Source of the DNA: Gammaproteobacteria bacterium
GTDB lineage: Bacteria; Pseudomonadota; Gammaproteobacteria; JABHGC01
Assembly: GCA_027077805.1 (NCBI GenBank)
Contig: JALWTS010000041.1
Span: 73,234-137,233 of the forward strand
Length of the DNA: 64,000 nucleotides
Direction of reading: 5' to 3'
The position numbers and the translations under genes are program-made. Position 1 is the stretch's first letter. The number at the start of each line of letters is the position of its first letter. Shown here piece by piece: positions 8,870 to 51,659 of the stretch. The notes beneath the pieces are model-generated. The model was not told the origin of the DNA. It did not search any database and worked only from the letters and a program-made list of their open reading frames with translations.

Positions 8870-9244
8870 CTACCAATATCCTAACTCATTAAAAATTAAT
8901 ATCCAAACCATAAACGCAAAACTCACTGCCAGTAACACTGCGGCTGATCCAATATCTTTCGCCCGTCCTGATAATTCATGACGTTGTCCACCAAATCTAT
9001 CCACCACTGCCTCAATCGCAGAATTAATTAATTCGACTATCATCACCAATAGCCAACTGCCAATTAATAAGGCTTGTTGTAATCCCGTCTCACCAAAATA
9101 AATGGCACTAGGTATGACTGGCAACAAAATCAAACACTCTAAACGAAAGGCTTCTTCATTTTTCCATGCCGATTTTAAGCCCTGATACGAATAAATCATA
9201 GCATAAAATAAACGTTTAAACCCGGTATTACCCGGTTTCATCAT
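8870..9244 (-). CDS. dgkA: Diacylglycerol kinase
   Basis: Strong similarity to E. coli DgkA throughout (…[37 protein letters not shown]…). The start is taken at the MMKPGNTGF Met rather than the longer ORF start. Confidence 0.8.
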
Positions 9245-10695: not shown

Positions 10696-10719
10696 AATTT
10701 TCGTTTCTTTTAATTATCG

Positions 10720-13653: not shown

Positions 13654-14526
13654 CTAGATTTTATACGATTTTTTTGTTGGCAAGTCTAAATTAAATGATT
13701 GAGGATTAAAACCAAAATCATTACTAGCAGGCTGATGTTCAAAAGTCATATCCTGATTCATACGTTCTGCCATTGCTACGGTCCAATGGCGATACCTTGG
13801 TAATAAATGTAAAAAAAACAATGCCAAGCGAAAAATCCCCAAAGGAATGGTTAAGATTCTAGGTTGACATTTTAATGCTAAAAAAACCCGTTCAACCATT
13901 TGCCGATAACTTAAGATTTCAGCCCCCGAAAGATTATAACTCTGATTTTTTATGGTTTTAGTTGTTAATGCTAAATAACAAGCCATTGCTACATCTTTGG
14001 CATAAACAGGTTGCCGTAAACCTTTCGCTTGACCCAATACAGGAAAAAAACCAAACTTATTAATAAAATTCGCCATGGCAGTAATATTTTTATCCTTACC
14101 CAAATCATAAATCAATGTTGGGCGTAAAATAAGCCATGCTACCTTGGACAAAATTGCTTGTTGTTGCAATTGTTGTTCCCCATTGATTAAACGCTGCACA
14201 ATTTGTTGTTCCGTTGAACTAGACGAATCAACTTTGGTAAAACGACTGGTCGATGATACGACCACAATACGCGTCATACCTGAGGCTAATAACCAATCAA
14301 AATAATCTGCCAATAACCATATTGGCGCTACCCATAACCAATCATTGATTTTAGGCTGTAGTGCGGTATTCATTGGAATTTGTTGCCAGTTAATATTAGG
14401 CGTATTTTTTTGCGGTGCTTTTCTAGAACAAGCAATGATTTGATAATTATTGGCAACTAGTATGGGTAATAAATGTTGTCCTACTAAACTGGTGGCACCG
14501 ACTACGCCTATATGATTATGTGGCAT
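13654..14526 (-). CDS. NAD(P)-binding Rossmann-fold protein (atypical SDR / epimerase-dehydratase-like)
   Basis: N-terminal IGVVGATSLVGQHLLPIL dinucleotide-binding motif. 290 aa. Confidence 0.45.
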   Translation of the reverse strand: MPHNHIGVVGATSLVGQHLLPILVANNYQIIACSRKAPQKNTPNINWQQIPMNTALQPKINDWLWVAPIWLLADYFDWLLASGMTRIVVVSSTSRFTKVDSSSSTEQQIVQRLINGEQQLQQQAILSKVAWLILRPTLIYDLGKDKNITAMANFINKFGFFPVLGQAKGLRQPVYAKDVAMACYLALTTKTIKNQSYNLSGAEILSYRQMVERVFLALKCQPRILTIPLGIFRLALFFLHLLPRYRHWTVAMAERMNQDMTFEHQPASNDFGFNPQSFNLDLPTKKSYKI

Positions 14527-14862
14527 CTAACTTGCCACCAATACACTCGCAATAGCTGAAACTTGTTCAATCACGACATCAGCAGTCGTTTCAATAAACT
14601 GACTATTACGTTGTATATAATCAATTGATTTTAATTGATAAACCAGAATTGCACCTTTTGTTTGTAAATTAGCAGGTAACACAACCTCTAATTGAATATT
14701 TCTAATCGTATGAGTAATTGGTGCAACAATTGCCATTTTAGTATGTTCATTAAACATTTTTTTGGAAATTACAAAGGCAGGTCGTCGTTTAATAATTTCT
14801 TTACCACTACTAGGATCAAAGTTTCACCAAATAATATCGCCTTGTTCAGGAATATAACTCAT
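14527..14862 (-). pseudogene. mazF: mazF/pemK-family toxin gene interrupted by an in-frame TGA (codon 13)
   Basis: Minus-strand ATG at 14862-14860 overlaps the mazE stop (ATGA). Translation is MSYIPEQGDIIW*NFDPSSGKEIIKRRPAFVISKKMFNEHTKMAIVAPIT…, which aligns to MazF (…GDLIWVDFDP…) over 111 codons. The stop is TGA at 14826-14824. The ORF track only recovers the downstream 76-aa piece. Confidence 0.6.
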
Positions 14863-15116
14863 AGGATTTCTTTACCTATTGCTTGCTGGTTTAGCCACTG
14901 CTTATCCTCATCAGTAAACTGCAAATTTTCTTTAGGCGTATTAGCTAATAACTCTTCTAAAGTTAGTGTTGGCTTGGCAGGCGTTAAAATAATTTGATTA
15001 TCTTGAACCGTAATATTCACACAAGAACCCACATTTAAATTTAGTGCGGATAAAATCGTTCTGGGAATACTAATAATATTAGCACCACCTGATTGACGAA
15101 TTACTGCCTGAATCAT
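14859..15116 (-). CDS. mazE: MazE/PemI-family antitoxin (AbrB/SpoVT-type)
   Basis: MIQAVIRQSGGANIISIPRTILSALNLNVGSCVNI…TLEELLANTPKENL aligns with E. coli MazE ([33 protein letters not shown]…TLAELVNDITPENL). Confidence 0.7.
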   Translation of the reverse strand: MIQAVIRQSGGANIISIPRTILSALNLNVGSCVNITVQDNQIILTPAKPTLTLEELLANTPKENLQFTDEDKQWLNQQAIGKEIL

Positions 15117-15202
15117 TGCGAATCTCCATCTAATATCAATTTAAAGTTATACTTTAGTATATGGTACAATAAAGAAGCTATTACTAAAAACAAACATCTA
15201 AT

Positions 15203-16075
15203 TTATTTACTCAAACGCAAACTATAATAAATCGCAATCAAGCTAAACCGCAACCAAACCCCAACCGCAACCCAACCCATTAAACCCCAAGAATATTGTT
15301 GTCGAAAAAACTTGCGATAAAAACGCATCATACCTTTATGTTTATGCCATTCCACAAAAATAGGGCGTGATTTACTACAAACGCCTAAAGCATGGGTAAC
15401 TTTAGCATCAGGCACAAATAGGATTTTCCAGCCCTTTTGCCAAAAACGTAGACACCAATCTAAATCTTCACAATGCAAAAAATAGCCTTCGTCCCAAAGT
15501 CCAACCTCAGTAATCGCCTCAGATTTCACCAACATACAAGCCCCTGAAATCGCCTCGACTTCTATTGGCTTTTTAGGTAATGGTTGTTGATGTAAATGAA
15601 AATCAAAAAATAATTTAGGCCAATATTTTGCGAAACGGTAGAAACCAAAGGCTCGTACTAATGAACGCCAAGGCGTTGGAATCGCACGTCGTCCGCCACC
15701 TTGTTCCGAACCATCAGCATTTAATAATAAAGCACCGACCATACCAATTTTATTATCTGAATCTAAAATTTGGCTTAACTGTTTAATAGTATTGGTTTCT
15801 AAACGACAATCAGGGTTTAAAAATAATAACTGCTTGGTTTTTGCTTGCTTAATACCAATATTACAGGCAGTGGCAAATCCTAAATTTTCAGCATTACGAA
15901 TAATAGTCAGTTTCGCTTCTTGTGGAAACTGTTGTTCACACAAGGCTAAACTGTTATCGTCTGAGGCATTATCAACAATAATAATTTGCCTTACTTGGGT
16001 TAAAATACTGGCAATACACTCCACCAGAAATTGACCCGCATTATAATTAACAATAATTACCGTAATCATACACAA
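15203..16075 (-). CDS. Family 2 glycosyltransferase
   Basis: ITVIIVNYNAGQFLVECIASIL…IIVDNASDDNS is a GT-A DxD-type N-terminus. Confidence 0.7.
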   Translation of the reverse strand: MCMITVIIVNYNAGQFLVECIASILTQVRQIIIVDNASDDNSLALCEQQFPQEAKLTIIRNAENLGFATACNIGIKQAKTKQLLFLNPDCRLETNTIKQLSQILDSDNKIGMVGALLLNADGSEQGGGRRAIPTPWRSLVRAFGFYRFAKYWPKLFFDFHLHQQPLPKKPIEVEAISGACMLVKSEAITEVGLWDEGYFLHCEDLDWCLRFWQKGWKILFVPDAKVTHALGVCSKSRPIFVEWHKHKGMMRFYRKFFRQQYSWGLMGWVAVGVWLRFSLIAIYYSLRLSK

Positions 16076-16179
16076 TAAGCTCTCTATTAATTCTATGACG
16101 ATGGAAATTCATATGTCTATAATTTTTAATTGTTTTAGGAATTATAATGATCGATATTTGCTATTATTGTTCTTAAATG

Positions 16180-17361
16180 TTATACGTCACTAACAATTTT
16201 TTTGTAAATATCATTAACCATTTCAGCACTTTGTTCAATTGAAAAAATTTTTTCAGCCCAAATCTTGGCATTATTTCCCAAGTATTGCCGTAAATCAGTA
16301 TTAGTAATCAATTCTTCTAAAACATCTGCTAATAAAATTGGATCAGGTGACTCAATTGCGATTCCTGTTTGGTTATGGATAATCGCGTCAGGTAAAGGTG
16401 ATGATACAGCTACTACGCTAGGAATGCCATATAAAGCAGCTTCAAATACAGGACGACCTGCTGTATTCAAATAAGAAGGAAAAGCTAAAATATCAATTTC
16501 TGCATAAATTTGATGAACATCCGCTACAAAACCTCTTAATTCAATAAAATCTTCTAAATCATATTGTTGAATTTTCTTAGTTATTTCAGATTTTACATCT
16601 TCGGCAAAACCCAATTGTTTTAACAAATATGCTTTTAATCCCACCAAATAACGTACATTTTCACCTACAATTAAAAGCTTAACTGATAATTTACGCTCCT
16701 TCACCAATATTCTAACTGCCTCAATTAATTCATAAATCCCCCTAAAACGTAACAAATTTCCTAAAAAGCCAACACAGACAACAGCATTTGTTGATACAAA
16801 TTGGGGCTTATTGACATAAAGACCATTATGAATAATCTTTAGTGGTAAAGCAGCGAATAAAGTACAAGCCACACTTTGATCAATTGCAATGACCGCATCG
16901 GCATATTGTTTTAATAATCGATTAATAATTTTTGTTCTTAAAATTGCCTTATTGCTATTTAACTGCACAGAACGGACATGAACAACTAATGGAATTTTTA
17001 ATAACCATTTAGCCAATAAACCAATAGGCAACAAAGTTATCTCATTTAAATGGATTAAATCGAACGATTGTTTTTTTAATTGCCATAACGCCAATAAACT
17101 ATAGGGTAAAAAAAATAATTCTCGAAACAAAATAATCCAACGTAATCCTCGATAATATCCATAACGAGTATGATCAAATTGGCTTAAACCTTTTACAGGA
17201 AAAATATTTAACCCAACTTCAACAAATGCTTGGCAAACAGCGCCCTTTGGTGTAACGACAGTTCCATTGACATTAAATTTTCTCAATAATTTAAACAATT
17301 CAATCAAACTTTTAGCGGCACCACCATAAACAGAAGCTGGATGGAAATATAATACGTTCAC
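16180..17361 (-). CDS. Family 4 (group 1) glycosyltransferase
   Basis: 393 aa with a GT-B C-terminal motif (…GRPVFEAALYGIPSVV…). Confidence 0.6.
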   Translation of the reverse strand: MNVLYFHPASVYGGAAKSLIELFKLLRKFNVNGTVVTPKGAVCQAFVEVGLNIFPVKGLSQFDHTRYGYYRGLRWIILFRELFFLPYSLLALWQLKKQSFDLIHLNEITLLPIGLLAKWLLKIPLVVHVRSVQLNSNKAILRTKIINRLLKQYADAVIAIDQSVACTLFAALPLKIIHNGLYVNKPQFVSTNAVVCVGFLGNLLRFRGIYELIEAVRILVKERKLSVKLLIVGENVRYLVGLKAYLLKQLGFAEDVKSEITKKIQQYDLEDFIELRGFVADVHQIYAEIDILAFPSYLNTAGRPVFEAALYGIPSVVAVSSPLPDAIIHNQTGIAIESPDPILLADVLEELITNTDLRQYLGNNAKIWAEKIFSIEQSAEMVNDIYKKIVSDV

Positions 17362-17638
17362 AATAGCCTTTAATAAATCAATAACCTTTAAGTTGTTTAA
17401 TAAAAAAATATTAGATTGAAACCAAAAACTTCATTAATTCTCTTTCTAAATGTCCAGAAATTAGATTTGCATAACTCACAGTAATATAGTGAGAATCTCG
17501 CCATACAATAACATTATTAGATTAGGTAGTAGTTTCCATATAGCAATAACCAGTACTAAAAATATTACTTTTTAGTACATTCAATAGCATAAGTTTTTAT
17601 TTTAGGCACATTATCATTGACAAACATTATGATAACAA

Positions 17639-19693
17639 CTAGTTATTTCCTTTCCAGGAACTAACTAAGCCCTGAATGTGACTATCACCATCAAAATTAA
17701 CTTTCTGCATCGTCAATAAACTTGAGCTTTTTATTAATTTCGGATAGATCAATAACATCATGTTATAAGCACCCCTAATCGACAAATGGTGATGATCACG
17801 ATAGTATACCTGCCCAACTTTGTCAAAAAACATACACTGCTCGTTGGGACACTGAACATCACGGACAGAAACATAGTTATTGGTTAGACTCTGTAATTTT
17901 TTAGCATAATCCAACTCTTTACGCACAGATTTCATATTAGGTTGACATATTTTATTAAGCCATTCATCTGAAATCACGAAATTAGGAACAGCCCTGCATT
18001 GCGCAATCAACGTATTTGGACGAATAAAATCTTCAAGATATATGGCTTGATGCCCCATTGCTTCTAGTTTAGATAAATGTTGATTTATAATAGGTGCAAC
18101 AAGTTCTGGTTTATCACGCTTGGCACTAGTAATTATAACAACTGCAGGCTTAGTTAGCGTAGACATCCACAACAATACTGACTTATTGCGTTCAATACAT
18201 TGCTGAGTTAAATCGGGTCGTTTAAACTCCCTGATCAACCCATTAAAACCACTTTGTGGTGTGCAACCATTTTGATAAGCAACTAACACATTTGAATCTG
18301 GAAATAATTCTACGAATCCAGCCACAAGATGCAAAGCATGACTATCACCCCAAAGGATAATATCAAGTGAACCATCTCTATGGGTAGCACAAGTAAATAA
18401 ATCACTAGGATATTTTTCACTTGGTGCCCCAGTGCAATAGTTTTTAATTTCAAGTTGTCGCCAATCACGATTGGCCAAATTTATTCGATAGTCAGGTATT
18501 CTGTCTGGAATATGGGATAAAACCACAATAAACAAAACAATACCCATCATTGCCAATGGAAATGTCAATTGGAGCAAGCAATCCTTAAAAGATGTTGCTT
18601 TGTGTGTCCAAATAGACGCATAACGCAATGGAGTTTCAATTGTTTTATTTAAAACAACCGCCATAAACAGCATAGCCCAAAAAAGCAAAATTTGGTCGAT
18701 ATTATCAAGCTCTAAACCATATAGTGCTTTGTAATAAACAATTAATGGCCAATGAACAAGATATAACGAATAGCTTATTTTTCCCAAAAATATGACCACT
18801 CGATGTTCAAATACAATTCTTGCAATAATTGATGCCGCACCTGAAAAAATCATGAGTCCTGCACCAACTGCAGGGAAAAGTGCATTATAATAGGGAAAAA
18901 GGCTGTGCTCATTAAGTAACATTGCAGGTGCAATACATAAAACTAATCCAAGCAAAAAAATAGTATTACCCAGTGTTTTTTTACTTTCTGACAATAAATT
19001 TGGTAAGTAAGCTAATAACGCACCTATACCAAATTCAAAAATACGAAATGGGAACCAGTAAAAGGATGTTGATACACCATCTCTAAAATTTGACATTACT
19101 CCTGTTGAGGATGTGATGTATGACATCACAGTTGTTTCAATTACTAACAGATTAAGTAAAAATGATATCATTGATGCTATCAAAACAGCAATTAACACGC
19201 CATAACGTCCCCAAAAACGATAGGAGAAATACAAAACGAAAGGCCAAAATAGGTAAAATTGTTCCTCAACTCCCAAAGACCATAAATGTAGCAAGGGCTT
19301 AGTTGCAGCAGTAGCATCAAAATAACCGACTTGTGACCAAAAATATATATTAGCCAAACTGAAAATTGAAAAAATACTAGAATCAATCAGATTGCTAAAT
19401 TGTTCATTAGAAAATAATAAGAAACCAACTAATACTGACACTAATACTGTAACAGCCATAGCAGGAAACAAGCGTCTAGCTCTACGCCAATAAAAAGCAG
19501 AAAATCTTATGTTGCCTTGCTCACATTGATCAAGTAATATTTTAGATATTAGAAAACCACTAATAACAAAAAAAATATCAACACCCACAAAACCACCTGG
19601 TAGTAAAGATACGTCTAAATGAGTAGCAATGACCAGTAAAACGGCAAGTGCTCTCATACCATCAATAAATATTAAATATTTCATAATTACCAA
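17639..19693 (-). CDS. Acyltransferase family 3 (OafA-like O-acetyltransferase) with a C-terminal SGNH domain
   Basis: 684 aa. The N-terminal 10-TM acyl_transf_3 pattern is present (…IFIDGMRALAVLLVIATHL…). The C-terminal approximately 300-aa soluble domain is typical of OafA/YrhL glycan O-acetyltransferases. Confidence 0.7.
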   Translation of the reverse strand: MVIMKYLIFIDGMRALAVLLVIATHLDVSLLPGGFVGVDIFFVISGFLISKILLDQCEQGNIRFSAFYWRRARRLFPAMAVTVLVSVLVGFLLFSNEQFSNLIDSSIFSIFSLANIYFWSQVGYFDATAATKPLLHLWSLGVEEQFYLFWPFVLYFSYRFWGRYGVLIAVLIASMISFLLNLLVIETTVMSYITSSTGVMSNFRDGVSTSFYWFPFRIFEFGIGALLAYLPNLLSESKKTLGNTIFLLGLVLCIAPAMLLNEHSLFPYYNALFPAVGAGLMIFSGAASIIARIVFEHRVVIFLGKISYSLYLVHWPLIVYYKALYGLELDNIDQILLFWAMLFMAVVLNKTIETPLRYASIWTHKATSFKDCLLQLTFPLAMMGIVLFIVVLSHIPDRIPDYRINLANRDWRQLEIKNYCTGAPSEKYPSDLFTCATHRDGSLDIILWGDSHALHLVAGFVELFPDSNVLVAYQNGCTPQSGFNGLIREFKRPDLTQQCIERNKSVLLWMSTLTKPAVVIITSAKRDKPELVAPIINQHLSKLEAMGHQAIYLEDFIRPNTLIAQCRAVPNFVISDEWLNKICQPNMKSVRKELDYAKKLQSLTNNYVSVRDVQCPNEQCMFFDKVGQVYYRDHHHLSIRGAYNMMLLIYPKLIKSSSLLTMQKVNFDGDSHIQGLVSSWKGNN

Positions 19694-19710
19694 ACAATGT
19701 TCTACAGAAT

Positions 19711-22524
19711 CTATTTAAGAAATAACTCTGCAGGAATCGGATACGGCAAAGTTTTCATTGGAAAACCAACAAAGGGCTGCTCAAAACCTGCTGCAATTCT
19801 TCGATGCCAAGCTCTAAAGGCAAGATGATTTTCGTGCCTAACGCCAATGATATCTCGCCAACCAATCGCAAAACGTCCGCCACTAGTTAAACTAGTGGAA
19901 CGATGAGTCACTAAAATTGTTAGAGATGATTTCTGTTTTATTGAGGTATCACCAAAAACTGTACGAATACGGGCAACATATTCTGAATCAGCACCTACAC
20001 GAATAGATAAAAAATAACCAATACGTTCAAATACTGAGCGTCGAAACATTAGTGAGATAAACGCTTTACGAATAGCTACACGACGAAAATTAATATGTCC
20101 ATCGCCATCAACCCGAAAATATTTGTGACATACCCCCACAATATCATGATTATTCTCAAGAATTTTGAGTTGTTGTTCAAGCCGTTGTGGATGACTCCAA
20201 TCATCACTATCCATAAAGGTTATATACTCTCCACGAGCATGTGACAAAGCAATATTCTTAGCCACATATGTTCCTGAATTTTGTCCACAACGAAATAAAC
20301 GTATACGTGAATCATGTTTAGCCTGATTTTCAAGCCATTCATAAGTATCATCTAGAGAACAGTCATCAACAATCAATAATTCCAGATTGTGATGAGATTG
20401 ATTTAAAATTGAATCCAGTGCCACCTGCAAAAGTTCATCTCGACCATAAACAGTCATAATCACTGATATTAACGCTTTATCCTGTGTCGTTTTAGGAACA
20501 TCACAACTCAAATTTGCTATCGCTAACCCAGTAGTATTATTTTTGTTGCGGATTGGATGTAAATTATACCGTTCTAAAACACTATTGATAATATCTAATT
20601 GTTTTGAATAATTATCTTGTAATCTAGCGATTTCAGCATGTAACAAATCTACCTCATCATTCTGTGGAAAATCAGTCTTTAACTTTTGATATAACGTATC
20701 TACAATCTCTGCATTGCCAAGATAAGCCTGAGAAAGCACTTCATGGATACGAAAAACACACATAAGCTCCCGAAGTCGCTTCACAATTGACAAATTGTTC
20801 CCTATTTTTAACTTATCAACTAATGTCCGCATACCACCCATAACGGTCAACTGTTCAACAATTGATACTACTTTTTTCCAATCTTGATCTTCATAATAGG
20901 CAATCATTATAGCTGTAGATACAGAAATCAAATAACGATACCCCCCCTGTTGCATATCATGATCTACCACTTTGCGCAACGCTTCTAAAGGGAGAAAGCG
21001 AACACAAGTACGATGTTCTAATTCTAACGCTTTATAATTATAAGGTTTTTTTTGTAAAATTTCGGTACAACATTGCCTTACAAATTGCCAATCTCCCATT
21101 TCATCCGCTAAAACTGCAAACTCTAATAATACAGGAATTGAAAAATTTGACTGCGCTAACAATAATTTGTTTACATCATTTTTTGCATCATTAAGCCTAC
21201 CAGATATACGTTTTACTTTTATGTCAGCAAGTAATTGTGATTCATTTAATAAAGACTTAGATAGGTAAAACTGTTTTCCTTTGTTACCTTCTAGAAAATT
21301 TGCAAGCTTGGACTGATTTGGTATTAGTTTTATAAAATGGTAAAAAAACAAAATCACACTAATTGGCAATTGAATAACAAACTTGATTGGTCGCACTAGC
21401 ATTTGACCTATTTTCCAAGATTTGCTATCTAATACTTCTTGAAGTTTATGCTCAAGTTGCTGGATACGTTTCTTACATTCTTTTTCATTAACTCTATTTT
21501 CGTCCATTTGAACCAAAATATCTCTAGCTTTCTCTTGCATCTTTTGTTGGTAGGTACTATTTTTTGAAAGATTACGATATAATCGAGTAAGTGCTGATAC
21601 TTCTCCACGTAACTGTTTGATTTCAGATAAATCACTATGCAACAATAACAAATTTTCATCCATTTTATTGCCTGCATAAACTGAACTGTGACCAGATGTT
21701 CCAACAACTAATTTACTATCACTTGACAAATTAGTCTCTATGTCTTGCCAATCTTCACCGTTTCTCCAACTAGGATAAATTTCATCCATTAATGCTCCAC
21801 AATGTTTTTTAAAAATTTCACATTGAGTTTCATCCCAATCATGCCAAGTCATAATTTTTTCAGCATAATTAGCTGAAGAAATAGCATTAATATCAGTAGT
21901 ACGTTGATTATGATGTTGAATTACAAAATTAGTAGGAGTAATTTTCAAAAAATCACATAAATCAAGCAAACTATTTGCCAAATTTTCAATGGTTAAAAAG
22001 AAAGTACGTTTAGGAGATATAGACAAAAGATCCTTTTGAATAAGCCTATTATTATAGTTCCAAAACCAACAATTTTTCTCAAATGAGGACCATGATTGCC
22101 ATTCTTCCGTTGAAACTAAACCCAACCTATCCCCTTGAAGTCGCCAACGACGCCATACAATAGCATTCTCAGCAAAATCCATTTCAGTAAACCATCCACG
22201 TTGAACACCAGAACAAACAACATTTCGTCCATCACGAATCAACCAAATATAATAACAGCGATGGAAAGCCTCTTCTAATAAAGGAATAAGCAACGATAAC
22301 TTATTGTTACTTTCGCCGTAATGAATTTCTTTGTTATCACTAGGACGAGTTGCTTTAAGCAATTGAACAATCGCTTTACCACTTAAATCACCATAACGAT
22401 ATTTTGCCGCCTCTTCTACAAGAATTGGTTCAGGTTCATGTAAACATTGGCAATTGGGTGACTGGGAGAGTACACGTGATATCGTGTTACTACCTGCTCG
22501 TCCAGTATTTAAAACAAAAAACAT
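19711..22524 (-). CDS. Multidomain protein: N-terminal sulfotransferase-like domain, central coiled-coil/helical region, C-terminal family 2 glycosyltransferase
   Basis: N-terminus LNTGRAGSNTISRVL resembles the PAPS 5'-phosphosulfate-binding loop of Stf0-type sulfotransferases, and a later RDGRNVVCS resembles a 3'-PB motif. The C-terminus ISVIMTVYGRDELLQVALDSILNQ…LLIVDDCSLDDT…FMDSDDWSHPQRLEQQ is a GT2 domain. 937 aa. Confidence 0.5.
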   Translation of the reverse strand: MFFVLNTGRAGSNTISRVLSQSPNCQCLHEPEPILVEEAAKYRYGDLSGKAIVQLLKATRPSDNKEIHYGESNNKLSLLIPLLEEAFHRCYYIWLIRDGRNVVCSGVQRGWFTEMDFAENAIVWRRWRLQGDRLGLVSTEEWQSWSSFEKNCWFWNYNNRLIQKDLLSISPKRTFFLTIENLANSLLDLCDFLKITPTNFVIQHHNQRTTDINAISSANYAEKIMTWHDWDETQCEIFKKHCGALMDEIYPSWRNGEDWQDIETNLSSDSKLVVGTSGHSSVYAGNKMDENLLLLHSDLSEIKQLRGEVSALTRLYRNLSKNSTYQQKMQEKARDILVQMDENRVNEKECKKRIQQLEHKLQEVLDSKSWKIGQMLVRPIKFVIQLPISVILFFYHFIKLIPNQSKLANFLEGNKGKQFYLSKSLLNESQLLADIKVKRISGRLNDAKNDVNKLLLAQSNFSIPVLLEFAVLADEMGDWQFVRQCCTEILQKKPYNYKALELEHRTCVRFLPLEALRKVVDHDMQQGGYRYLISVSTAIMIAYYEDQDWKKVVSIVEQLTVMGGMRTLVDKLKIGNNLSIVKRLRELMCVFRIHEVLSQAYLGNAEIVDTLYQKLKTDFPQNDEVDLLHAEIARLQDNYSKQLDIINSVLERYNLHPIRNKNNTTGLAIANLSCDVPKTTQDKALISVIMTVYGRDELLQVALDSILNQSHHNLELLIVDDCSLDDTYEWLENQAKHDSRIRLFRCGQNSGTYVAKNIALSHARGEYITFMDSDDWSHPQRLEQQLKILENNHDIVGVCHKYFRVDGDGHINFRRVAIRKAFISLMFRRSVFERIGYFLSIRVGADSEYVARIRTVFGDTSIKQKSSLTILVTHRSTSLTSGGRFAIGWRDIIGVRHENHLAFRAWHRRIAAGFEQPFVGFPMKTLPYPIPAELFLK

Positions 22525-22591
22525 TCAATATCCTCATTAATTAAACAAAAATTTAAAAGTAATAGTGTCATACAGCAATAACTTAAAATAT

Positions 22592-24214
22592 CTAAACTAA
22601 ATCCCCATAACCCCGAGTTTTCGCCCCAACCCAATAATCAACTGTTGCACCAATATCCAATGCAACACATCCTTGTTGGGCAAGTTGTGCAACAAAAATT
22701 TTACCAATAATACCACCCGCAACTAATGCCAAAGTTCCAGGCATAGTTTCTTTTTTTAAATTATTCAATATTGAATTGAAACAATTGGGGAGAATGGTAG
22801 AGTTATTGTAAAAAATTTTGTTAGATAAAGTTTTTGCATGAGTTGGAATTTTGTAAATTTCAATATTGTTTTTAACAAAAAAATTTCCAAAAAAGTCCAT
22901 AATGTAATCTTCATTTATACTAGAAACAATAACCAATTTTTCTGCGGAATTAGAAAGTTTTTTAATATAACTTTCATCAAATACTACCTGATGTACACGT
23001 TCTTCAGTCAATACGACTTCTTTATGAACAATCTCCGGCAAATGCTTCATAACTGTTAAAAGTGCTCTGCCACCATGCATAGATTGAAAGTTTTGCAAAC
23101 GAGGATTCGTATCTCGAATAAAACGATAAATACTTGGAATACCAAGCACATCAACAAAATCTAAAGCATCCTGTAATTGACACCTAATATTTCCCCTCAA
23201 TTCTTCACTTAGTTCTGTTCCCCACCAATGACGTTCACGCAATCGTTGATCATCAACGACAGCGAAATCAGTTGAATTATTCCAGATGTATGATTCGCCA
23301 TCACCTAGTCTAATGAGTGATAGCCTTTCTTTTTTAATCAATTTTTTTTCCAAAAAACTAGTAAAGGCTTCTTTATCAACTGGATTTACTCGAACATCCA
23401 TAAATTTCATTTGTTGACGCAAATGGTTATAGACAGGAATAACATATTGTTCCAATTCGTGACGAAATCCTTTAGGAGCATAATTCAACAAAAGTTGTTC
23501 TTGATTTTGATGACTAAGGCGATATTGCTGATCCAGCAACAGACTAGATTCTATCTCACTAAGCTTTAATTTTTCTAATCCATTCTCAATAGACAACATA
23601 TTATACACTTGTTTGTATTTTTTTTCTCCTTGCTTAGTTGCTAATCTTAATAAACCAGCCTTTTGCACGGTTCGCAAAGAACTCGGCTTACTAAAAACTG
23701 ATGCGTCAAAAAAAGCTTCTAACATATGAATTTTCTCACTTTTTAATAACATTGCAAATACAACATTTTCAAAACGAGCTCTTTTCACTGATGTGTATAA
23801 TGGGAAAAATTTTATCACTTGGCTTAATTCTTCTTCAGACAGTACAGAACCACTAAAATCACGTTGATTCAACCACAACCATAACTTGATAGAAGAATTA
23901 GTCACTGCTATAACCTCTTGCGAAGATAATTCATAAAACAGTTTGTGAATGATTTCACTACGTTCATTAAATAATATTTCTAATACTGAAAGCAATTGTT
24001 CATTTGGAAGATTTGCTTGAGCTTCAAGTTTAGTTAAGGTCATCATTGGATCTTTTGCATGAAGCAATGCAATTTCAATTAAATCTTGTGAGATATTTGC
24101 CTGAATATTATTTAAGTAACGATCAGCTAATAAAGTTACAGCTTGCTCTGTTAACTCGGGTGTTTTATCTAATAGCCAAAATACAACTTTTATTACTAAC
24201 AATTTGAACTTCAT
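22592..24214 (-). CDS. Hypothetical protein; the C-terminal half may be a GT-D/DUF1792-like glycosyltransferase
   Basis: 540 aa. LIRLGDGESYIWN and …LALVAGGIIGKIF…DIGATVDYW resemble the DUF1792 GDGE / DxE pattern. This is a weak call. Confidence 0.3.
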   Translation of the reverse strand: MKFKLLVIKVVFWLLDKTPELTEQAVTLLADRYLNNIQANISQDLIEIALLHAKDPMMTLTKLEAQANLPNEQLLSVLEILFNERSEIIHKLFYELSSQEVIAVTNSSIKLWLWLNQRDFSGSVLSEEELSQVIKFFPLYTSVKRARFENVVFAMLLKSEKIHMLEAFFDASVFSKPSSLRTVQKAGLLRLATKQGEKKYKQVYNMLSIENGLEKLKLSEIESSLLLDQQYRLSHQNQEQLLLNYAPKGFRHELEQYVIPVYNHLRQQMKFMDVRVNPVDKEAFTSFLEKKLIKKERLSLIRLGDGESYIWNNSTDFAVVDDQRLRERHWWGTELSEELRGNIRCQLQDALDFVDVLGIPSIYRFIRDTNPRLQNFQSMHGGRALLTVMKHLPEIVHKEVVLTEERVHQVVFDESYIKKLSNSAEKLVIVSSINEDYIMDFFGNFFVKNNIEIYKIPTHAKTLSNKIFYNNSTILPNCFNSILNNLKKETMPGTLALVAGGIIGKIFVAQLAQQGCVALDIGATVDYWVGAKTRGYGDLV

Positions 24215-25290
24215 TATAAAGATTCTTTTGATTTTGACAACTGAATATCAACAATTAAATCCTTTAACACCAAATACTCCGTATTTAAGGCTCTCATCCC
24301 TGTTAATAGACTTTGTAATATACCAAACAAAAAACGAACAATAAAAAAAACAATAAGCATATCACCAAGATTTTCAGTATTCACATCAAATTCCATTACA
24401 TAAATCACGGTTGAAGCAAAAAAAACGCCCAAAATTACTCTAAGAATTAATTGAACAATTTTTGCGTCAAGCTGTCCTCTTTTCTTTGACAGTTCTAATT
24501 TTTTGTTTTTATCTGAATAACATACCTTGTGATAGTAATCTTGGAAATCAGAATCTACATCCCCTAAATTACTTTGTTTCATCAAATTTTGCTTTAAACT
24601 TTTATCAAGTTCTTTTAGCTTCTTTTCCATTGATTTTGTTTGATTTGTCTGATAATAACTTTTCCATAAAAACACTGGAATCAAAACAATCATAATAGCT
24701 ATTAAAATAATTGTCATAATCGGCATAAAATAAGCAATAATAACCAAGCTTAACAGGATTACCCCAAGATTTTGTAATAACTCAAACAAATGAAATATAA
24801 CATTTATTATCGCTTTACCAAATTGTGGATCAGTTTGAAAAATAAATTGATGAAGTATTTTTGATTTCTCTTTATCTGCCTCTTGTGATTTTTGGTGTTG
24901 TTCAAAAAAGATATTCGCCTTAATTTTACGAAATTTACTTGTTCTTGAATAAGAGTATTTTGATATTTTAATAGAATAAACTAACGGTAAAATTGCCGAC
25001 AATATAAATAACAATAAAATAAAACATGCCACCACCAAAATAAAAGTTCTCTCGGATATGGGTGGAAATTGATATGCAATTAACCCATCTAAAATATTTT
25101 GTATATCACCACTATGAACTAATACAATACTTTTGATTGATACCATAAAAGCAACAATAATAATCATTTTGGAAACAATACCACTAAAATTCAACAAAAT
25201 AAAAGTTAATGGCTTATCTAAAAATAATGTTTTAGCAAATATTGATATAGTTTTAAAATAACTGACGGCACTATTGTAAAAAAAAGACAT
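24214..25290 (-). CDS. Polytopic inner-membrane protein (ABC-exporter-like transmembrane domain without an NBD), unknown function
   Basis: 358 aa with about 6 hydrophobic helices. It sits in the glycan cluster and shares a start/stop with the next gene. Confidence 0.3.
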   Translation of the reverse strand: MSFFYNSAVSYFKTISIFAKTLFLDKPLTFILLNFSGIVSKMIIIVAFMVSIKSIVLVHSGDIQNILDGLIAYQFPPISERTFILVVACFILLLFILSAILPLVYSIKISKYSYSRTSKFRKIKANIFFEQHQKSQEADKEKSKILHQFIFQTDPQFGKAIINVIFHLFELLQNLGVILLSLVIIAYFMPIMTIILIAIMIVLIPVFLWKSYYQTNQTKSMEKKLKELDKSLKQNLMKQSNLGDVDSDFQDYYHKVCYSDKNKKLELSKKRGQLDAKIVQLILRVILGVFFASTVIYVMEFDVNTENLGDMLIVFFIVRFLFGILQSLLTGMRALNTEYLVLKDLIVDIQLSKSKESL

Positions 25291-25480
25291 GAAAAACCTA
25301 AACTCTTAACAAAATAACTGTTGCATTGCACTTAGTTTAAAATAATAAATAAACATAAACGGTTAAACTAAAAGCAAATTTAATGTTATTTAACTATATT
25401 TTAACCACATTTTTTTAATTTTAGAGTACAATTCAAAACACAAAATAGCAATTTCAATTTATCTATCACTAATAACAAAC

Positions 25481-26035
25481 TCAATCAAACAACTCTGCCT
25501 CTTTAAATAAAGAACCCTGTCTATCTTTTGTTGAAAGTGTAATATCCAATTTTTTATCAACCAACCAATCAATCTTTAAACTCGCATCATTCCAAGCAAT
25601 ACAACGCTCTAATTCAGGGGCATAATAGTTCGTGGTTTTATACAAAAATTCCGCCGTGTCTGATAAAGTTAAAAAACCGTGCGCAAAACCTTCTGGAATC
25701 CAAAGTTGATGATGATTTTCAGATGATAATCCCGCACTTACCCATTGCCCAAAAGTTGGCGACGAACGCCGAATATCCACCGCAACATCTAAAACTTTAC
25801 CTTGTACTACTCTGACTAATTTGCCTTGCGCTTTAGGGTTTAATTGATAATGTAACCCTCTTAATACGCCTTTGACTGATTTAGAATGATTATCTTGGAC
25901 AAACTCACAATTTAATCCTGTCAATGCTTTAAATACTTTCGCATTAAAACTTTCAAAGAAAAAACCACGATGATCACCAAATACTTTGGGTTGCAATAAA
26001 ATCACATCAGGAATTGCTAAAGGGGTTGCTTGCAT
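25481..26035 (-). CDS. rfbC: dTDP-4-dehydrorhamnose 3,5-epimerase
   Basis: 184-aa RmlC cupin (…VFGDHRGFFFESFN…). Confidence 0.9.
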   Translation of the reverse strand: MQATPLAIPDVILLQPKVFGDHRGFFFESFNAKVFKALTGLNCEFVQDNHSKSVKGVLRGLHYQLNPKAQGKLVRVVQGKVLDVAVDIRRSSPTFGQWVSAGLSSENHHQLWIPEGFAHGFLTLSDTAEFLYKTTNYYAPELERCIAWNDASLKIDWLVDKKLDITLSTKDRQGSLFKEAELFD

Positions 26036-26921
26036 TAAAATACTCTTTCTTGCAGTAAAAGTTGTAAATATTGACCGTAACTGTTTTTTATTAAGGGTTG
26101 ACTTAATTGTTCTAATTGTTGATCATCAATCCAATGTTGTCGCCAAGCAATTTCTTCAGGACAAGCCACTTTTAAACCTTGGCGTTTTTCCAAAGTCGCA
26201 ATAAAATGACTGGCTTCTAATAATGAATCATGGGTTCCCGTATCCAACCAAGCATAACCTCTCCCCATAATCTCAACCGATAATTGCTGTTGTGCTAAAT
26301 ACAACGCATTAATATCGGTAATTTCCAACTCACCTCTAGCAGAAGGTTTTAATTGTTTTGCCATTTCTATCACTTGATTATCATAAAAATACAAGCCTGT
26401 TACCGCATAATGCGATTTCGGGTTTGCAGGTTTTTCTTCCAATGACAAGACTTGTCCCGTTTGGTCAAACTCAACGACACCATAACGTTCAGGGTCATGC
26501 ACATGATAAGCAAATACACTCGCACCTGCTTGACGCTGAGCCGCATTCGCTAATAAATGATGAAAATCATGGCCATAAAAAATATTATCCCCTAAAATTA
26601 AGGCACAGCAGTCTTGAGCAATAAATTCATCACCCAGAATAAATGCTTGGGCTAAACCATCAGGACTTGCTTGCACTTGATACTGTAAATTTAACCCCCA
26701 TTGTTGACCATCACCTAATAGTCGCTGAAACGCAGGCATATCATGTGGGGTTGAAATAATCAAAATATCTTGAATCCCTGCTAACATCAATGTGCTTAGT
26801 GGATAATAAATCATAGGTTTATCATAAACAGGCAGTAGTTGTTTGGAAATTGATAAAGTCGCAGGATATAAGCGAGTACCACTGCCTCCCGCAAGAACAA
26901 TCCCTTTACAAATACTCATTA
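26035..26921 (-). CDS. rfbA: Glucose-1-phosphate thymidylyltransferase
   Basis: [42 protein letters not shown]. The start is taken at the internal Met, which overlaps the rfbD stop. Confidence 0.9.
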
Positions 26922-27812
26922 TAACTGTCCTTGTAAAGCCAGTTCTGCCACCAAGCGTTTTACCTGAACTTGCCAATCGGGTAATACCAATCCAAATTGT
27001 TGTTTGATTTTATCGGTATTTAAACGAGAATTTAAGGGTCGTGTTGCGGGGGTTGGATAAGCACTCGTTTTAATAGGAATGATTTGCTCAGGACTAATTT
27101 TTAATTCCGCCCCTGCTTGAATTGCTTCAGTAATGACCAATTTTGCAAACTCATGCCAATTCGTCTCACCTGACGCCACCAAATGATATAATCCACTGGC
27201 ATTATTGCCTTGCTTAAATTGCAATAAACACATCGCCGTAATATCCGCAATTAATTCGGCACTGGTTGGCACGCCAACTTGATCAACCACTACTTTTAAC
27301 TGTTCCCGTTGCTTTGCTAATCGTAACATAGTTCTAGCAAAATTATGACCTAGGCGAGCATAAACCCAACTGGTGCGAAAAATAAAATGTTGACAAGCCA
27401 CGTCAGCTATCAATTGCTCGCCTAGTTGCTTGGTTTGACCATAGACACTTTGGGGAGAGGTCGCATCGCTTTCTAAATAAGGTGAATCTTTAGTGCCATC
27501 AAACACATAATCGGTGGAATAATGCACTAAACAACCATTAATTTGCTTTACTGCTTCGGCAATCACTTTCACCGCTTGGGCATTGACAATATTAGCTAAT
27601 TCAGGCTCTGACTCCGCTTTATCTACGGCGGTATAAGCAGCAGCATTCACTACGATATCAGGTGATAATTTGAGGATACAATCACCTAATTTATCTAACT
27701 CAATAAAATCTACTTCCGTTTGATCAAAAGCGGTAACTGTTCCTAAGGGTAATAATGCCCGTTGCAATTCCCAACCAACTTGCCCTTGTTTGCCTAATAA
27801 TAATATGTTCAT
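26919..27812 (-). CDS. rfbD: dTDP-4-dehydrorhamnose reductase
   Basis: [16 protein letters not shown]… RmlD Rossmann fold. It is translationally coupled to rfbB. Confidence 0.85.
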
Positions 27813-28864
27813 GAATACTGTTGCTCCACCCACTGACGATAAACCCCAGTCGTAACATTATTAACCCAATCGAAATGTGATAAATACCAAGTTACTGTTT
27901 TAGCCATGCCAGATTCAAAGGTTTCTTTAGGTCGCCAAGCTAATTGTTGTTGAATTTTAGAGGCATCAATCGCATAGCGTCGATCATGCCCTGGCCGATC
28001 TTTAACATAAGTAATCTGATCAGCATAAGACTTACCATCGGTTCTTGGTTGCTGTTGATCCAAAATCTGACACAAGGTATTCACTACCTCAATATTCGCT
28101 TTTTCATTACACCCACCAATATTATAAACCTCACCGACTTGACCTTTTTCTAATACGTTTACAATTGCCTGACAATGATCAATCACATATAACCAGTCCC
28201 GAATTTGTTGACCATCCCCATAAATGGGTAAAGGCTGATTACTAATGGCATTATGAATACACAATGGAATCAATTTTTCTGGAAACTGATAAGGGCCATA
28301 ATTATTAGAACAATTCGTGGTTAATACAGGCAAGCCATAGGTATGATAATAAGCTCGAACTAAATGATCCGAACTGGCTTTACTGGCAGAATAAGGACTA
28401 TTAGGTTGATATTGATGAGTTTCTTTAAATGCTGGTGCATTTTTTTCCAATGACCCATACACTTCATCCGTAGAAATATGTAAAAATCGAAAATTTTGTC
28501 GTTGCTCACTAGGCAATTGATTCCAATAATCTCGTACTGATTCTAATAAGCGAAACGTTCCCACAATATTGGTTTGAATAAAATCATCGGGGCCATGAAT
28601 AGAACGATCAACATGGGATTCTGCGGCAAAATTAATCATTGCTCGGGGCTGATATTTTACTAATAATTCGGTTATTAATTTCTCATCAGCAATATCGCCT
28701 TGTTGGAAAATATATTGCGGATGATCCGAAATTGGTTTTAAATTTTCCAAGTTTCCTGCATAGCTTAACTTATCCAAATTTAACACTAATTCTTGCGAAT
28801 GTTGTAACCAATCAGTAATGAAATTGCTGCCAATAAACCCAGCACCACCTGTTACAAATATCAT
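27809..28864 (-). CDS. rfbB: dTDP-glucose 4,6-dehydratase
   Basis: MIFVTGGAGFIGSNF…; 351 aa RmlB. Confidence 0.9.
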   Translation of the reverse strand: MIFVTGGAGFIGSNFITDWLQHSQELVLNLDKLSYAGNLENLKPISDHPQYIFQQGDIADEKLITELLVKYQPRAMINFAAESHVDRSIHGPDDFIQTNIVGTFRLLESVRDYWNQLPSEQRQNFRFLHISTDEVYGSLEKNAPAFKETHQYQPNSPYSASKASSDHLVRAYYHTYGLPVLTTNCSNNYGPYQFPEKLIPLCIHNAISNQPLPIYGDGQQIRDWLYVIDHCQAIVNVLEKGQVGEVYNIGGCNEKANIEVVNTLCQILDQQQPRTDGKSYADQITYVKDRPGHDRRYAIDASKIQQQLAWRPKETFESGMAKTVTWYLSHFDWVNNVTTGVYRQWVEQQYS

Positions 28865-36169: not shown

Positions 36170-36186
36170 ATTAACCACCTTAAATA

Positions 36187-37488: not shown

Positions 37489-37489
37489 A

Positions 37490-38512: not shown

Positions 38513-38519
38513 AGTTATC

Positions 38520-40050: not shown

Positions 40051-40064
40051 CCGCCTAATCCTTG

Positions 40065-40982: not shown

Positions 40983-41008
40983 AAAACGATCAAATAGGAC
41001 TGAAATAA

Positions 41009-50208: not shown

Positions 50209-50212
50209 TAAT

Positions 50213-51085: not shown

Positions 51086-51099
51086 ATTCAGACAGGAAG

Positions 51100-51145
51100 A
51101 AATAAAGGACAAATTTGTCAACTCATTTGTCCTTTATTTTTTATT
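51100..51145. terminator. Bidirectional terminator (14-bp stem)
   Basis: AAATAAAGGACAAA-…-TTTGTCCTTTATTT followed by a T-run. It lies between convergent genes. Confidence 0.6.
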
Positions 51146-51162
51146 TTTGAAAATTTTGGCGA

Positions 51163-51552: not shown

Positions 51553-51659
51553 CCTTTATTAAAAAATTAAAAACATTGCTTTCATTATAGTGATGATTTC
51601 AGTCATGCACATTAAAATCTTGCAAAATTTCCATAATTTAGCGAAAATGTCTTTTAGTG

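What the first reader, a model, noticed from the sequence alone, without database searches (positions are those of the whole stretch)
19711..22524. 937-aa three-part protein: Stf0-like sulfotransferase domain + long helical/coiled-coil region + family-2 glycosyltransferase
Seen directly: the N-terminal approximately 200 aa carry a P-loop-like NTGRAGSNTISRVL and a downstream RDGRNVVCS, which resemble the 5'-PSB and 3'-PB motifs of PAPS-dependent sulfotransferases. Residues about 300-640 are Lys/Glu/Leu-rich helical repeats. The C-terminal approximately 250 aa are an unmistakable GT2 domain (…VIMTVYGRDELL…LIVDDCSLDDT…FMDSDDW…). Inference: a single polypeptide that both adds a sugar and sulfates the glycan is uncommon in bacteria. 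The fusion implies coupled glycosyl transfer and sulfation, and a PAPS supply (cysC/cysDN) should exist elsewhere in the genome.
Basis: partly seen in the sequence, partly recalled or inferred. Interest (0 to 1): 0.5.

Follow-up and report, generated by a model that had tools for sequence, protein, structure and literature searches.

The report
Sulfotransferase–stalk–glycosyltransferase polysaccharide assembly protein
This is a real 937-residue enzyme from an uncultured Gram-negative bacterium that joins a sulfate-adding domain to a sugar-adding domain through a coiled-coil stalk, the layout of known proteins that build and cap cell-surface sugar chains, which suggests an uncharacterised way of making a sulfated surface polysaccharide.

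The parts
19711..22524 (-). Whole gene: 937-aa sulfotransferase / coiled coil / membrane helix / TPR-like / GT2 protein (stop codon included)
   Evidence: ORF list; RBS and start; full-length AlphaFold model, mean pLDDT 86.4
21775..22524 (-). aa 1-250: PAPS-type sulfotransferase domain (TPST/Sulfotransfer_3-like). 5'-PSB loop G8-R9-A10-G11-S12; H29-E30 candidate catalytic base; 3'-PB R97...S105
21637..21774 (-). aa 251-296: end of the sulfotransferase domain and a low-confidence linker
   Evidence: pLDDT <55 for about aa 265-287
21427..21636 (-). aa 297-366: coiled-coil stalk. It starts at the conserved EIKQLRGEV motif, has no proline, and shows heptad periodicity
21322..21426 (-). aa 367-401: conserved SKSWKIG helix followed by the hydrophobic segment VIQLPISVILFFYHFIKLI (putative monotopic membrane anchor)
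   Evidence: Motif conserved in 12 family members; Kyte-Doolittle 19-residue mean 1.92
20569..21270 (-). aa 419-652: TPR-like alpha-solenoid of 13 helices. It is homologous to the region in front of the GT2 in stand-alone TPR+GT2 proteins
19714..20487 (-). aa 680-937: GT2 (GT-A fold, inverting) glycosyltransferase with DSDD metal/donor motif. Closest solved relative is the GT2 module of heparosan synthase PmHS2
17639..19693 (-). Downstream gene, 18 bp away: AT3-SGNH O-acyltransferase. The gene pair is conserved with ortholog P0006
22592..24214 (-). Upstream gene, 67 bp away: 540-aa protein with a GT-D-like domain
24214..25290 (-). 358-aa polytopic membrane protein with no recognisable family
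25481..28864 (-). rmlB-rmlD-rmlA-rmlC: dTDP-L-rhamnose synthesis, at the head of the same-strand gene string
15203..17361 (-). GT4 (16180-17361) and a second GT2 (15203-16075): further glycosyltransferases of the locus

Best explanation
The gene encodes a membrane-associated, multi-module assembly enzyme of a low-GC surface-polysaccharide locus (rmlBDAC, four glycosyltransferase-type genes, an AT3-SGNH O-acyltransferase). SHOWN: (1) an intact PAPS-type sulfotransferase domain; (2) a heptad coiled coil of about 70 residues; (3) a conserved SxSW(K/R)xG helix with a hydrophobic tail; (4) a TPR-like solenoid; (5) an intact PmHS2-like inverting GT2. It is also shown that (1-3) and (4-5) exist elsewhere as separate proteins, and that proteins carrying (1-3) often sit next to wzm/wzt exporter genes. 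INFERRED: both catalytic domains face the cytoplasm, because each needs a cytoplasmic activated donor (PAPS, an NDP-sugar). The helix at 367-401 therefore anchors the protein in-plane on the inner membrane rather than crossing it. The GT2, held at the membrane by the TPR scaffold, extends an undecaprenyl-linked, rhamnose-containing glycan. The sulfotransferase, held about 10 nm away on the oligomeric stalk, sulfates the distal (non-reducing) part of the growing chain. By analogy with WbdD, WbbB and K. pneumoniae O7 ORF6, the most likely role of that geometry is capping and chain-length control. The AT3-SGNH enzyme would O-acylate the product after export. Rough confidences: bifunctional sulfotransferase + GT acting on a surface glycan, about 0.85; stalk/anchor architecture analogous to the polymerase-terminator proteins, about 0.6; sulfate acting specifically as a chain-terminating cap, about 0.35-0.4.
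Against: The 64-kb window contains no wzm/wzt, kpsMT, wzx/wzy or initiating transferase. The two closest full-length orthologs also show no exporter in the DNA available. Every Wzt next to a relative is only 237-283 aa and so lacks the carbohydrate-binding module found in all characterised terminated systems (PMC11231755). The coiled coil is short (about 70 aa) and its oligomeric state is unknown. The enrichment statistic is weak, and the Wzm/Wzt profiles were built from four of the five positives. The structurally characterised sulfated bacterial capsules looked up here (Cobetia and Vibrio papers) are described as carrying sulfate on the repeating unit rather than as an end cap (PMC11766843, PMC11641403). 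No PAPS genes are in the window, whereas those loci carry cysNC/cysD/cysQ. There is no sequence homology to WbdD or WbbB, so the resemblance is architectural only.
Confidence: 0.45

Rival explanations
1. Simple coupled modification. The GT2 adds one sugar per repeat and the sulfotransferase sulfates that sugar, or a neighbouring one, in every repeat unit, as with Rha2S in Cobetia capsule. The coiled coil only mediates oligomerisation and membrane recruitment and has no ruler or terminator role.
For: Sulfated, O-acylated, rhamnose-containing capsules with per-repeat sulfate are documented in marine Gammaproteobacteria that carry rml operons, acyltransferases and ABC transporters. Wzt proteins beside the relatives lack a cap-reading CBM. 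Non-coiled-coil members of the same sulfotransferase family occur in wzx/wzy and wzm/wzt loci, where they must act as ordinary decorating enzymes.
Against: It does not explain why this sub-family consistently places a variable-length (56-142 aa), proline-free heptad stalk plus a conserved membrane helix between the sulfotransferase and the membrane-proximal modules. It also does not explain why the family reproduces both the split and the fused formats typical of terminators.
Confidence: 0.35
2. The acceptor of the sulfotransferase is not the glycan but a protein tyrosine or a lipid/acyl intermediate, since its closest structural relatives are tyrosylprotein sulfotransferases and the CurM/OLS acyl-ACP sulfotransferases.
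For: The top structural and sequence relatives are TPST1/2 and the OLS/CurM sulfotransferases.
Confidence: 0.06
3. The N-domain is a degenerate sulfotransferase or P-loop relic that retains only a structural or nucleotide-binding role, so the protein is functionally just a scaffolded GT2.
For: The query alone falls below Pfam's gathering score for PF13469 (16.8-21.2 bits against 27). No PAPS-synthesis genes are in the window.
Against: All family-invariant residues, including both PAPS-phosphate-binding motifs, are present in the query. The domain is 38-54% identical to many relatives, which points to purifying selection. The model is confident across the core (pLDDT 83-97 over aa 1-200).
Confidence: 0.05
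4. The locus makes a glycosaminoglycan-like (uronic-acid-containing, heparosan/chondroitin-type) backbone that is sulfated in the cytoplasm, in effect a bacterial sulfated GAG mimic.
For: The GT2 is by far most similar to the GT2 module of heparosan synthase PmHS2, and chondroitin polymerase K4CP is also among the solved matches (E 2.7e-15, behind GalT1). Relatives' loci encode UDP-glucose/ManNAc dehydrogenases or UDP-GlcNAc 2-epimerase next to the sulfotransferase fusion. Ortholog P0019 is preceded by an alginate-lyase-fold protein.
Against: This window has rmlBDAC but no UDP-sugar dehydrogenase and no GT45/KfiA-like partner. 32% identity does not fix donor specificity, and GT2 rhamnosyltransferases are common.
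Confidence: 0.06

Closest known systems
WbbB (Klebsiella pneumoniae O12 / Raoultella terrigena) and K. pneumoniae O7 ORF6: single-polypeptide polymerase-terminators of ABC-transporter-dependent O antigens (PMC11231755)
   Same: Same order of parts: an N-terminal chain-modifying enzyme, then a coiled coil, then C-terminal GT module(s). ORF6(O7) also ends in GT2 modules and serves a rhamnose-containing glycan. Relatives of the query abut wzm/wzt. The family shows both fused and split module formats.
   Different: There is no sequence homology. The distal enzyme is a PAPS sulfotransferase rather than a Kdo transferase (GT99/GT137) or a methyltransferase-kinase. The stalk is shorter. A hydrophobic helix and a TPR solenoid lie between the stalk and the GT. 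There is only one GT module. No exporter is in the window, and the Wzt proteins in relatives have no CBM.
WbdD (E. coli O9a/O8), coiled-coil molecular-ruler terminator
   Same: Catalytic head, coiled coil, then a membrane-associating helix. The sulfotransferase + coil-only relatives (P0007, P0010-P0012; about 600-650 aa), which directly follow a large GT, look like the WbdD/WbdA split arrangement.
   Different: WbdD carries no GT. Its chemistry is phosphate/methyl capping. Its ruler function and CBM-gated export are experimentally established, whereas nothing is established here.
Tyrosylprotein sulfotransferases TPST1/2 and the Sulfotransfer_3 (PF13469) family, including the CurM/OLS sulfotransferase domains
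   Same: Best fold and profile matches. The 5'-PSB loop, the 3'-PB RDGRxxVxS motif and an acidic/His residue at the TPST catalytic-Glu position are shared.
   Different: Only 14-17% identity. The acceptors of those enzymes are peptides or acyl-ACPs. The family found here has its own invariant Trp cluster (W142, W153, W155, W230) and a polysaccharide context.
Heparosan synthase PmHS2 (Pasteurella multocida), N-terminal GT2 module
   Same: 32% identity over the entire GT2 domain, including its C-terminal extension. PmHS2 is a polymerising GT of an ABC-transporter-dependent capsule pathway.
   Different: PmHS2 pairs this GT2 with a second, retaining GT domain and has no sulfotransferase, stalk or TPR region. 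By the GT2 inverting mechanism the module makes the beta-GlcA linkage (my own knowledge). The donor sugar here is unknown.
Sulfated capsule loci of Cobetia marina KMM 1449 and Vibrio sp. KMM 8419 (PMC11766843, PMC11641403)
   Same: An rml operon, several GTs, an acyltransferase and sulfotransferase(s) together in a surface-polysaccharide locus of a Gram-negative bacterium. The product there is a sulfated, acylated, rhamnose-containing glycan.
   Different: Those sulfotransferases are described there as separate genes rather than GT fusions. Those loci include kpsMT-type ABC transporters and cysNC/cysD/cysQ. None of these is in this window.

Membership tests
PAPS-dependent sulfotransferase superfamily (Sulfotransfer_3 / TPST-like) | Sulfotransferase fold (P-loop-like alpha/beta core with the sulfotransferase-specific helical cap) | tested here: met
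PAPS-dependent sulfotransferase superfamily (Sulfotransfer_3 / TPST-like) | 5'-phosphosulfate-binding loop ([KR]-x-G-[ST]-[ST]) | tested here: met
   G8-R9-A10-G11-S12. R9 and G11 are invariant in 48 relatives. The loop aligns to PRSGTT of TPST1.
PAPS-dependent sulfotransferase superfamily (Sulfotransfer_3 / TPST-like) | 3'-phosphate-binding motif (R-D-x-R-x-x-x-x-S) | tested here: met
   R97-D98-G99-R100...S105. R97 and S105 are invariant. The motif aligns to RDGRASVHS of TPST1/2.
PAPS-dependent sulfotransferase superfamily (Sulfotransfer_3 / TPST-like) | Catalytic base (His or Glu) after strand 2 | tested here: inconclusive
   H29 (invariant) and E30 align with the two Glu of CGEET in TPST. 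Which of the two acts as base cannot be decided from sequence.
PAPS-dependent sulfotransferase superfamily (Sulfotransfer_3 / TPST-like) | Score above Pfam's gathering threshold for PF13469 | tested here: not met
   The query scores 16.8 bits (full protein) and 21.2 bits (domain) against a cut-off of 27. Relatives do pass: P0023 40.8, P0030 36.3, P0083 58.7.
PAPS-dependent sulfotransferase superfamily (Sulfotransfer_3 / TPST-like) | PAPS-dependent sulfate transfer to an acceptor | not testable with these tools
   Needs biochemistry.
Stf0 (PF09037) trehalose sulfotransferase family | Specific sequence or structural similarity to Stf0 above that to other P-loop folds | tested here: not met
Glycosyltransferase family 2 (GT-A fold, inverting) | PF00535 above threshold, DxD motif, GT-A fold | tested here: met
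   116.5 bits against 23.3. D772-S-D-D775. Foldseek to PmHS2 E 2e-19, plus SpsA, TarP and K4CP.
Coiled-coil polymerase-terminator proteins of ABC-transporter-dependent glycans (WbdD/WbbB/ORF6-O7 type) | Chain-modifying enzyme at the distal end of a coiled coil, with GT module(s) or a GT-recruitment site at the proximal end | tested here: met
   Order ST(1-250) - coil(297-366) - membrane helix(367-401) - TPR - GT2. The definition is taken from PMC11231755.
Coiled-coil polymerase-terminator proteins of ABC-transporter-dependent glycans (WbdD/WbbB/ORF6-O7 type) | Extended oligomeric coiled coil acting as a molecular ruler | tested here: inconclusive
   The heptad signal is significant and the spacer length varies from 56 to 142 aa across the family. 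The coil is only about 70 aa here, and neither oligomeric state nor ruler function was tested.
Coiled-coil polymerase-terminator proteins of ABC-transporter-dependent glycans (WbdD/WbbB/ORF6-O7 type) | Wzm/Wzt ABC-2 exporter encoded in the same locus | tested here: not met
   None in the 64-kb window, by Pfam or by custom profiles at E<=10. It is met in 5 of 9 coiled-coil relatives.
Coiled-coil polymerase-terminator proteins of ABC-transporter-dependent glycans (WbdD/WbbB/ORF6-O7 type) | Wzt carries a C-terminal carbohydrate-binding module that reads the terminal cap | tested here: not met
   Wzt next to relatives are 237, 238, 271, 274 and 283 aa, i.e. nucleotide-binding domain only. This cannot be tested for the window's organism.
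Coiled-coil polymerase-terminator proteins of ABC-transporter-dependent glycans (WbdD/WbbB/ORF6-O7 type) | Sequence homology to WbdD or WbbB | tested here: not met
   Neither appears in the PDB sequence searches or the fold searches. The resemblance is architectural only.
Coiled-coil polymerase-terminator proteins of ABC-transporter-dependent glycans (WbdD/WbbB/ORF6-O7 type) | Non-reducing terminal cap shown chemically, with chain length dependent on it | not testable with these tools
   Needs glycan structure analysis and genetics.
Sulfated-capsule loci (Cobetia/Vibrio type) | PAPS-synthesis genes (cysNC, cysD, cysQ) and a kps ABC transporter inside the locus | tested here: not met
   Not present in the window. 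The hallmark is as stated in PMC11641403.

The most novel reading that the evidence does not exclude
Sulfation by PAPS is a previously unrecognised chain-terminating chemistry for bacterial glycans. In this reading, a family of coiled-coil 'sulfo-terminators' exists in fused (WbbB-like, as here) and split (WbdD-like) formats and sets polysaccharide length by capping the non-reducing end with sulfate. It would do so without the CBM-bearing Wzt checkpoint of every characterised system, and in this organism without a linked ABC exporter.
Probability: 0.3. Interest if true: 0.7.

Novelty: new variant of a known kind. Interest (0 to 1): 0.5.

Why it matters
Bacterial polysaccharide sulfotransferases are scarcely characterised (noted in PMC11641403), and sulfated glycans are sought for biomedical use. 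If the stalk-mounted sulfotransferase caps chains, it adds a fourth terminator chemistry to methyl, phospho-methyl and Kdo. It would also show that the coiled-coil ruler strategy works without a cap-reading transporter. If instead it sulfates every repeat, the protein is a compact, self-scaffolded GT + sulfotransferase unit, and its PmHS2-like GT2 could be useful for engineering sulfated polymers. Either way, the work here defines a large, uncharacterised sulfotransferase family (3445 representatives at 50% identity). Clear diagnostic residues and a small number of recurring fusion architectures give experimenters concrete constructs to test.

Tried and rejected
(1) Single-sequence search of the N-domain against PDB sequences found nothing relevant; profiles were needed. 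(2) 'Stf0-like' was rejected. (3) A generic P-loop kinase reading was rejected: kinases appear only below every sulfotransferase sub-family except Stf0. (4) A true transmembrane helix at aa 383-401 was considered. I judged it unlikely because both catalytic domains need cytoplasmic donors and the orthologs lack the hydrophobic stretch, but it is not excluded. (5) I looked for wzm/wzt, wzx/wzy, an initiating transferase and cysC/cysDN/cysQ across the whole window and found none. (6) I tried to name the host: housekeeping proteins are singletons at 90% identity and carry no names, and the reference-genome scan found no close relative of the full protein. (7) The AFDB fold library was unavailable. 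(8) The 358-aa membrane protein was tested as a possible exporter component: no Pfam or PDB match. (9) Synteny of the upstream GT-D-like gene with the ortholog contig was weak and uninterpretable. (10) Literature searches for a sulfotransferase terminator or a sulfotransferase-coiled-coil-GT fusion found nothing. The only near-miss is an unexplained 216-aa sulfotransferase-domain ORF between wzt and wbbB in Aeromonas salmonicida.
Full report
OBSERVATION. The ORF at 19711..22524 on the minus strand is real: 937 codons, ATG start, an in-frame stop immediately upstream and a GAGGA Shine-Dalgarno 7 nt before the start. The identical protein is also present on two other public metagenome contigs. 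Housekeeping proteins of the window have no relatives at 90% identity or above. The host is therefore an uncultured lineage. It is Gram-negative, judging from the porin, type IV pilus genes and D,D-carboxypeptidase.

MIDDLE REGION.
- aa 297-366 form long helices that start at a motif conserved across the sub-family (E[IL]K.LRGE[LV].AL). The segment is K/E/Q/L-rich and proline-free. Its 3.5-residue hydrophobic periodicity is reached by 1 of 2000 shuffles, and five control segments from other domains are not significant. This is a coiled coil of about 10 nm if fully extended.
- aa 367-401 begin with S-K-S-W-K-I-G. This is the query's version of an S-x-[ST]-[WFY]-[RK]-x-G helix found at the end of the coil in all 12 members examined. 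Here it is followed by the hydrophobic 19-mer VIQLPISVILFFYHFIKLI (Kyte-Doolittle 1.92), which the orthologs lack.
- aa 419-652 are thirteen tightly packed helices of about 14 residues with pLDDT >90, a TPR-like solenoid.
The spacer from LRGE to SxS[WFY]R ranges from 56 to 142 residues among family members and is 62 in the query.

C-DOMAIN. The GT2 assignment is unambiguous. Its nearest solved relative, by about 8 orders of magnitude on Foldseek E-value (about 14 on the sequence search), is the N-terminal GT2 module of Pasteurella heparosan synthase PmHS2. The sequence match is E 8.3e-33 over the entire domain, and the Foldseek match is E 2e-19 at 32% identity. Other, much weaker matches include E. 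coli K4 chondroitin polymerase (sequence E 2.7e-15). These are polymerising GTs of ABC-transporter-dependent capsules. Because GT2 enzymes invert, the PmHS2 module is the beta-GlcA transferase (my own knowledge). The donor sugar here cannot be inferred.

A FUSION OF TWO MODULES. Sulfotransferase + coil + SxSW-helix occurs without any GT2 in proteins of 390-650 aa (P0001, P0002, P0007-P0012). TPR + this GT2 occurs without a sulfotransferase in 332 proteins at E<=1e-10, including Poseidoniales archaeal MAGs and Aeromonas rivipollensis. Full-length orthologs are P0006 (966 aa, 45-49% identity) and P0019 (934 aa, about 41-43%). Other sulfotransferase+GT fusions recur: ST-CC-GT2 with a different GT2 (P0013, P0023, P0029, L010, L093), ST-CC-GT1-GT2 (P0030, L011), and ST/GT2/TPR combinations (P0047, P0049, P0057). 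The fusion is thus rare but recurrent, and I found no characterised example.

CONTEXT. The gene sits in a same-strand, low-GC string (GC 0.29-0.36 against 0.39-0.40 in the flanks). The order is rmlB-rmlD-rmlA-rmlC, a 358-aa membrane protein with no family, a GT-D-like 540-aa protein, the target, an AT3-SGNH O-acyltransferase 18 bp downstream, GT4, GT2, a mazE/truncated-mazF pair, and an SDR-like gene. The glycine-cleavage genes follow. The AT3-SGNH partner is conserved next to ortholog P0006. The 64-kb window contains no wzm/wzt, kpsMT, wzx/wzy or initiating transferase, and no cysC/cysDN/cysQ. Elsewhere, coiled-coil members of the family abut ABC-2 exporter genes:
- L003, L010 and L093: 70-86 bp away.
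- L011 (a Halieaceae MAG): wzm-wzt-[ST-CC-GT1-GT2]-wecB.
- L004: 1.2 kb away.
Counting de-duplicated loci of at least 8 kb, 5 of 9 coiled-coil members have a Wzm+Wzt pair against 6 of 32 other members (Fisher p 0.04). This is only suggestive, because the profiles were built from four of the positives and contigs are short. The sulfotransferase + coil-only proteins P0007 and P0011 directly follow 750-aa GT1/GT28-like proteins.

MECHANISM. In the published paradigm for ABC-transporter-dependent glycans, the terminating enzyme sits at the distal end of a coiled-coil molecular ruler. The proximal end carries a membrane-associating helix and either recruits the polymerase (WbdD/WbdA) or is fused to it (WbbB; K. 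pneumoniae O7 ORF6 = methyltransferase-kinase + coil + two GT2 rhamnosyltransferase modules). [quoted passage not shown] The protein here reproduces that order of parts, and its family reproduces both the split and the fused formats. My best explanation is therefore a membrane-anchored assembly protein. Its GT2 extends the lipid-linked glycan, and its stalk-mounted sulfotransferase sulfates the distal end of the chain, plausibly as a cap. That both domains are cytoplasmic, and that aa 367-401 is an in-plane anchor, is inference from their donor requirements.

WHAT ARGUES AGAINST THE CAP MODEL. All Wzt proteins beside relatives are 237-283 aa and so lack the cap-reading CBM that is present in every characterised terminated system. 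The query's own sub-group shows no exporter nearby. The stalk is short. The documented sulfated bacterial capsules carry sulfate on every repeat, for example ->4)-alpha-L-Rhap2S-(1->3)-beta-D-Manp6PGro in Cobetia. Those capsules come from loci with rml genes, an acyltransferase, ABC transporters, sulfotransferase genes that are described there as separate genes, and cysNC/cysD/cysQ. Minor rivals are a non-glycan acceptor, a degenerate domain, and a GAG-like sulfated product suggested by the PmHS2 similarity. In animals, sulfation of the terminal GlcA by HNK-1 sulfotransferase is known to stop matriglycan extension (my own knowledge), so sulfate capping as a length control has precedent outside bacteria.

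VERDICT. The sub-family label and the description of the middle region are corrected. The likely mechanism is reframed as a sulfotransferase variant of the coiled-coil polymerase/terminator architecture. It is a new variant of a known kind, it is uncharacterised, and it is of moderate interest (0.5). What remains open is cap versus per-repeat sulfation, the export route, and the PAPS supply.

Noticed in passing
window 14527-15116 (-): A mazE antitoxin gene (85 aa, PF04014 E 6e-9) followed by an N-terminally truncated mazF/pemK toxin gene (76 aa, matching profile positions 32-103 of 109). They lie inside the polysaccharide cluster, between the GT2 and the SDR-like gene.
   Followed up: partly
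window 24214-25290 (-): A 358-aa polytopic membrane protein with no Pfam or PDB family. It sits directly after rmlC, and its stop overlaps the start of the GT-D-like gene. It is a candidate for an unrecognised export or flippase component in a locus that otherwise lacks any exporter.
   Followed up: partly
window 22592-24214 (-): A 540-aa protein with an unassigned 280-aa N-terminal half and a weak GT-D-like domain (PF22882, 32.9 bits). It contains an RLGDGES motif.
   Followed up: partly
window 49015-51733 (+): A phage-type integrase (49015-50208) and an alpha/beta hydrolase lie just upstream of the only tRNA in the window, tRNA-Arg(CCG) at 51660-51733. This may be the edge of an integrated element.
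   Followed up: no
window 34496-41965 (-): A complete MoxR/Bat-type operon: AAA_3 MoxR ATPase, DUF58, DUF4381, two VWA proteins, a TPR protein and BatD.
   Followed up: no
window 14000-26000: The GC content of the polysaccharide genes drops to 0.29-0.36 against 0.39-0.40 in the flanks and in the rml genes. This is typical of horizontally exchanged surface-glycan loci.
   Followed up: no
L108, L111-L113, L117-L123, L126, L127, L132 and proteins P0074, P0083 etc.: A large sub-family of roughly 400-490-aa proteins carries this same sulfotransferase domain behind an N-terminal extension of about 140-230 aa. In the two examined (P0074, P0083) that extension is a hexapeptide-repeat (LbH) acyltransferase domain. 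If this holds generally, it is a second recurrent bifunctional decorating enzyme; several of these genes lie near wzm/wzt.
   Followed up: partly
L172 7574-9868 (next to ortholog P0019): A 764-aa protein with an alginate-lyase fold (PF05426) immediately precedes the second full-length ortholog. Together with the PmHS2-like GT2, this hints at an acidic, GAG- or alginate-like polymer in that organism.
   Followed up: no
L009 8906-11344 and L007 (Poseidoniales archaeal MAGs): The closest named relatives of the TPR+GT2 half (37% identity over aa 471-930) are in marine Group II archaeal MAGs. This suggests inter-domain transfer of the module, or mis-binned contigs.
   Followed up: no
window 9241-12123 (-): The glycine dehydrogenase is encoded as two separate subunit genes (gcvPA 10720-12123 and gcvPB 9241-10695) downstream of gcvT and gcvH.
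   Followed up: no
Literature: Aeromonas salmonicida wb(salmo) cluster (PMC4483657): A conserved 216-aa ORF with a sulfotransferase domain lies between wzt (438 aa in the paper's table) and a WbbB homolog. No sulfate has been reported in that O antigen. A substoichiometric terminal sulfate cap would be easy to miss.
   Followed up: no
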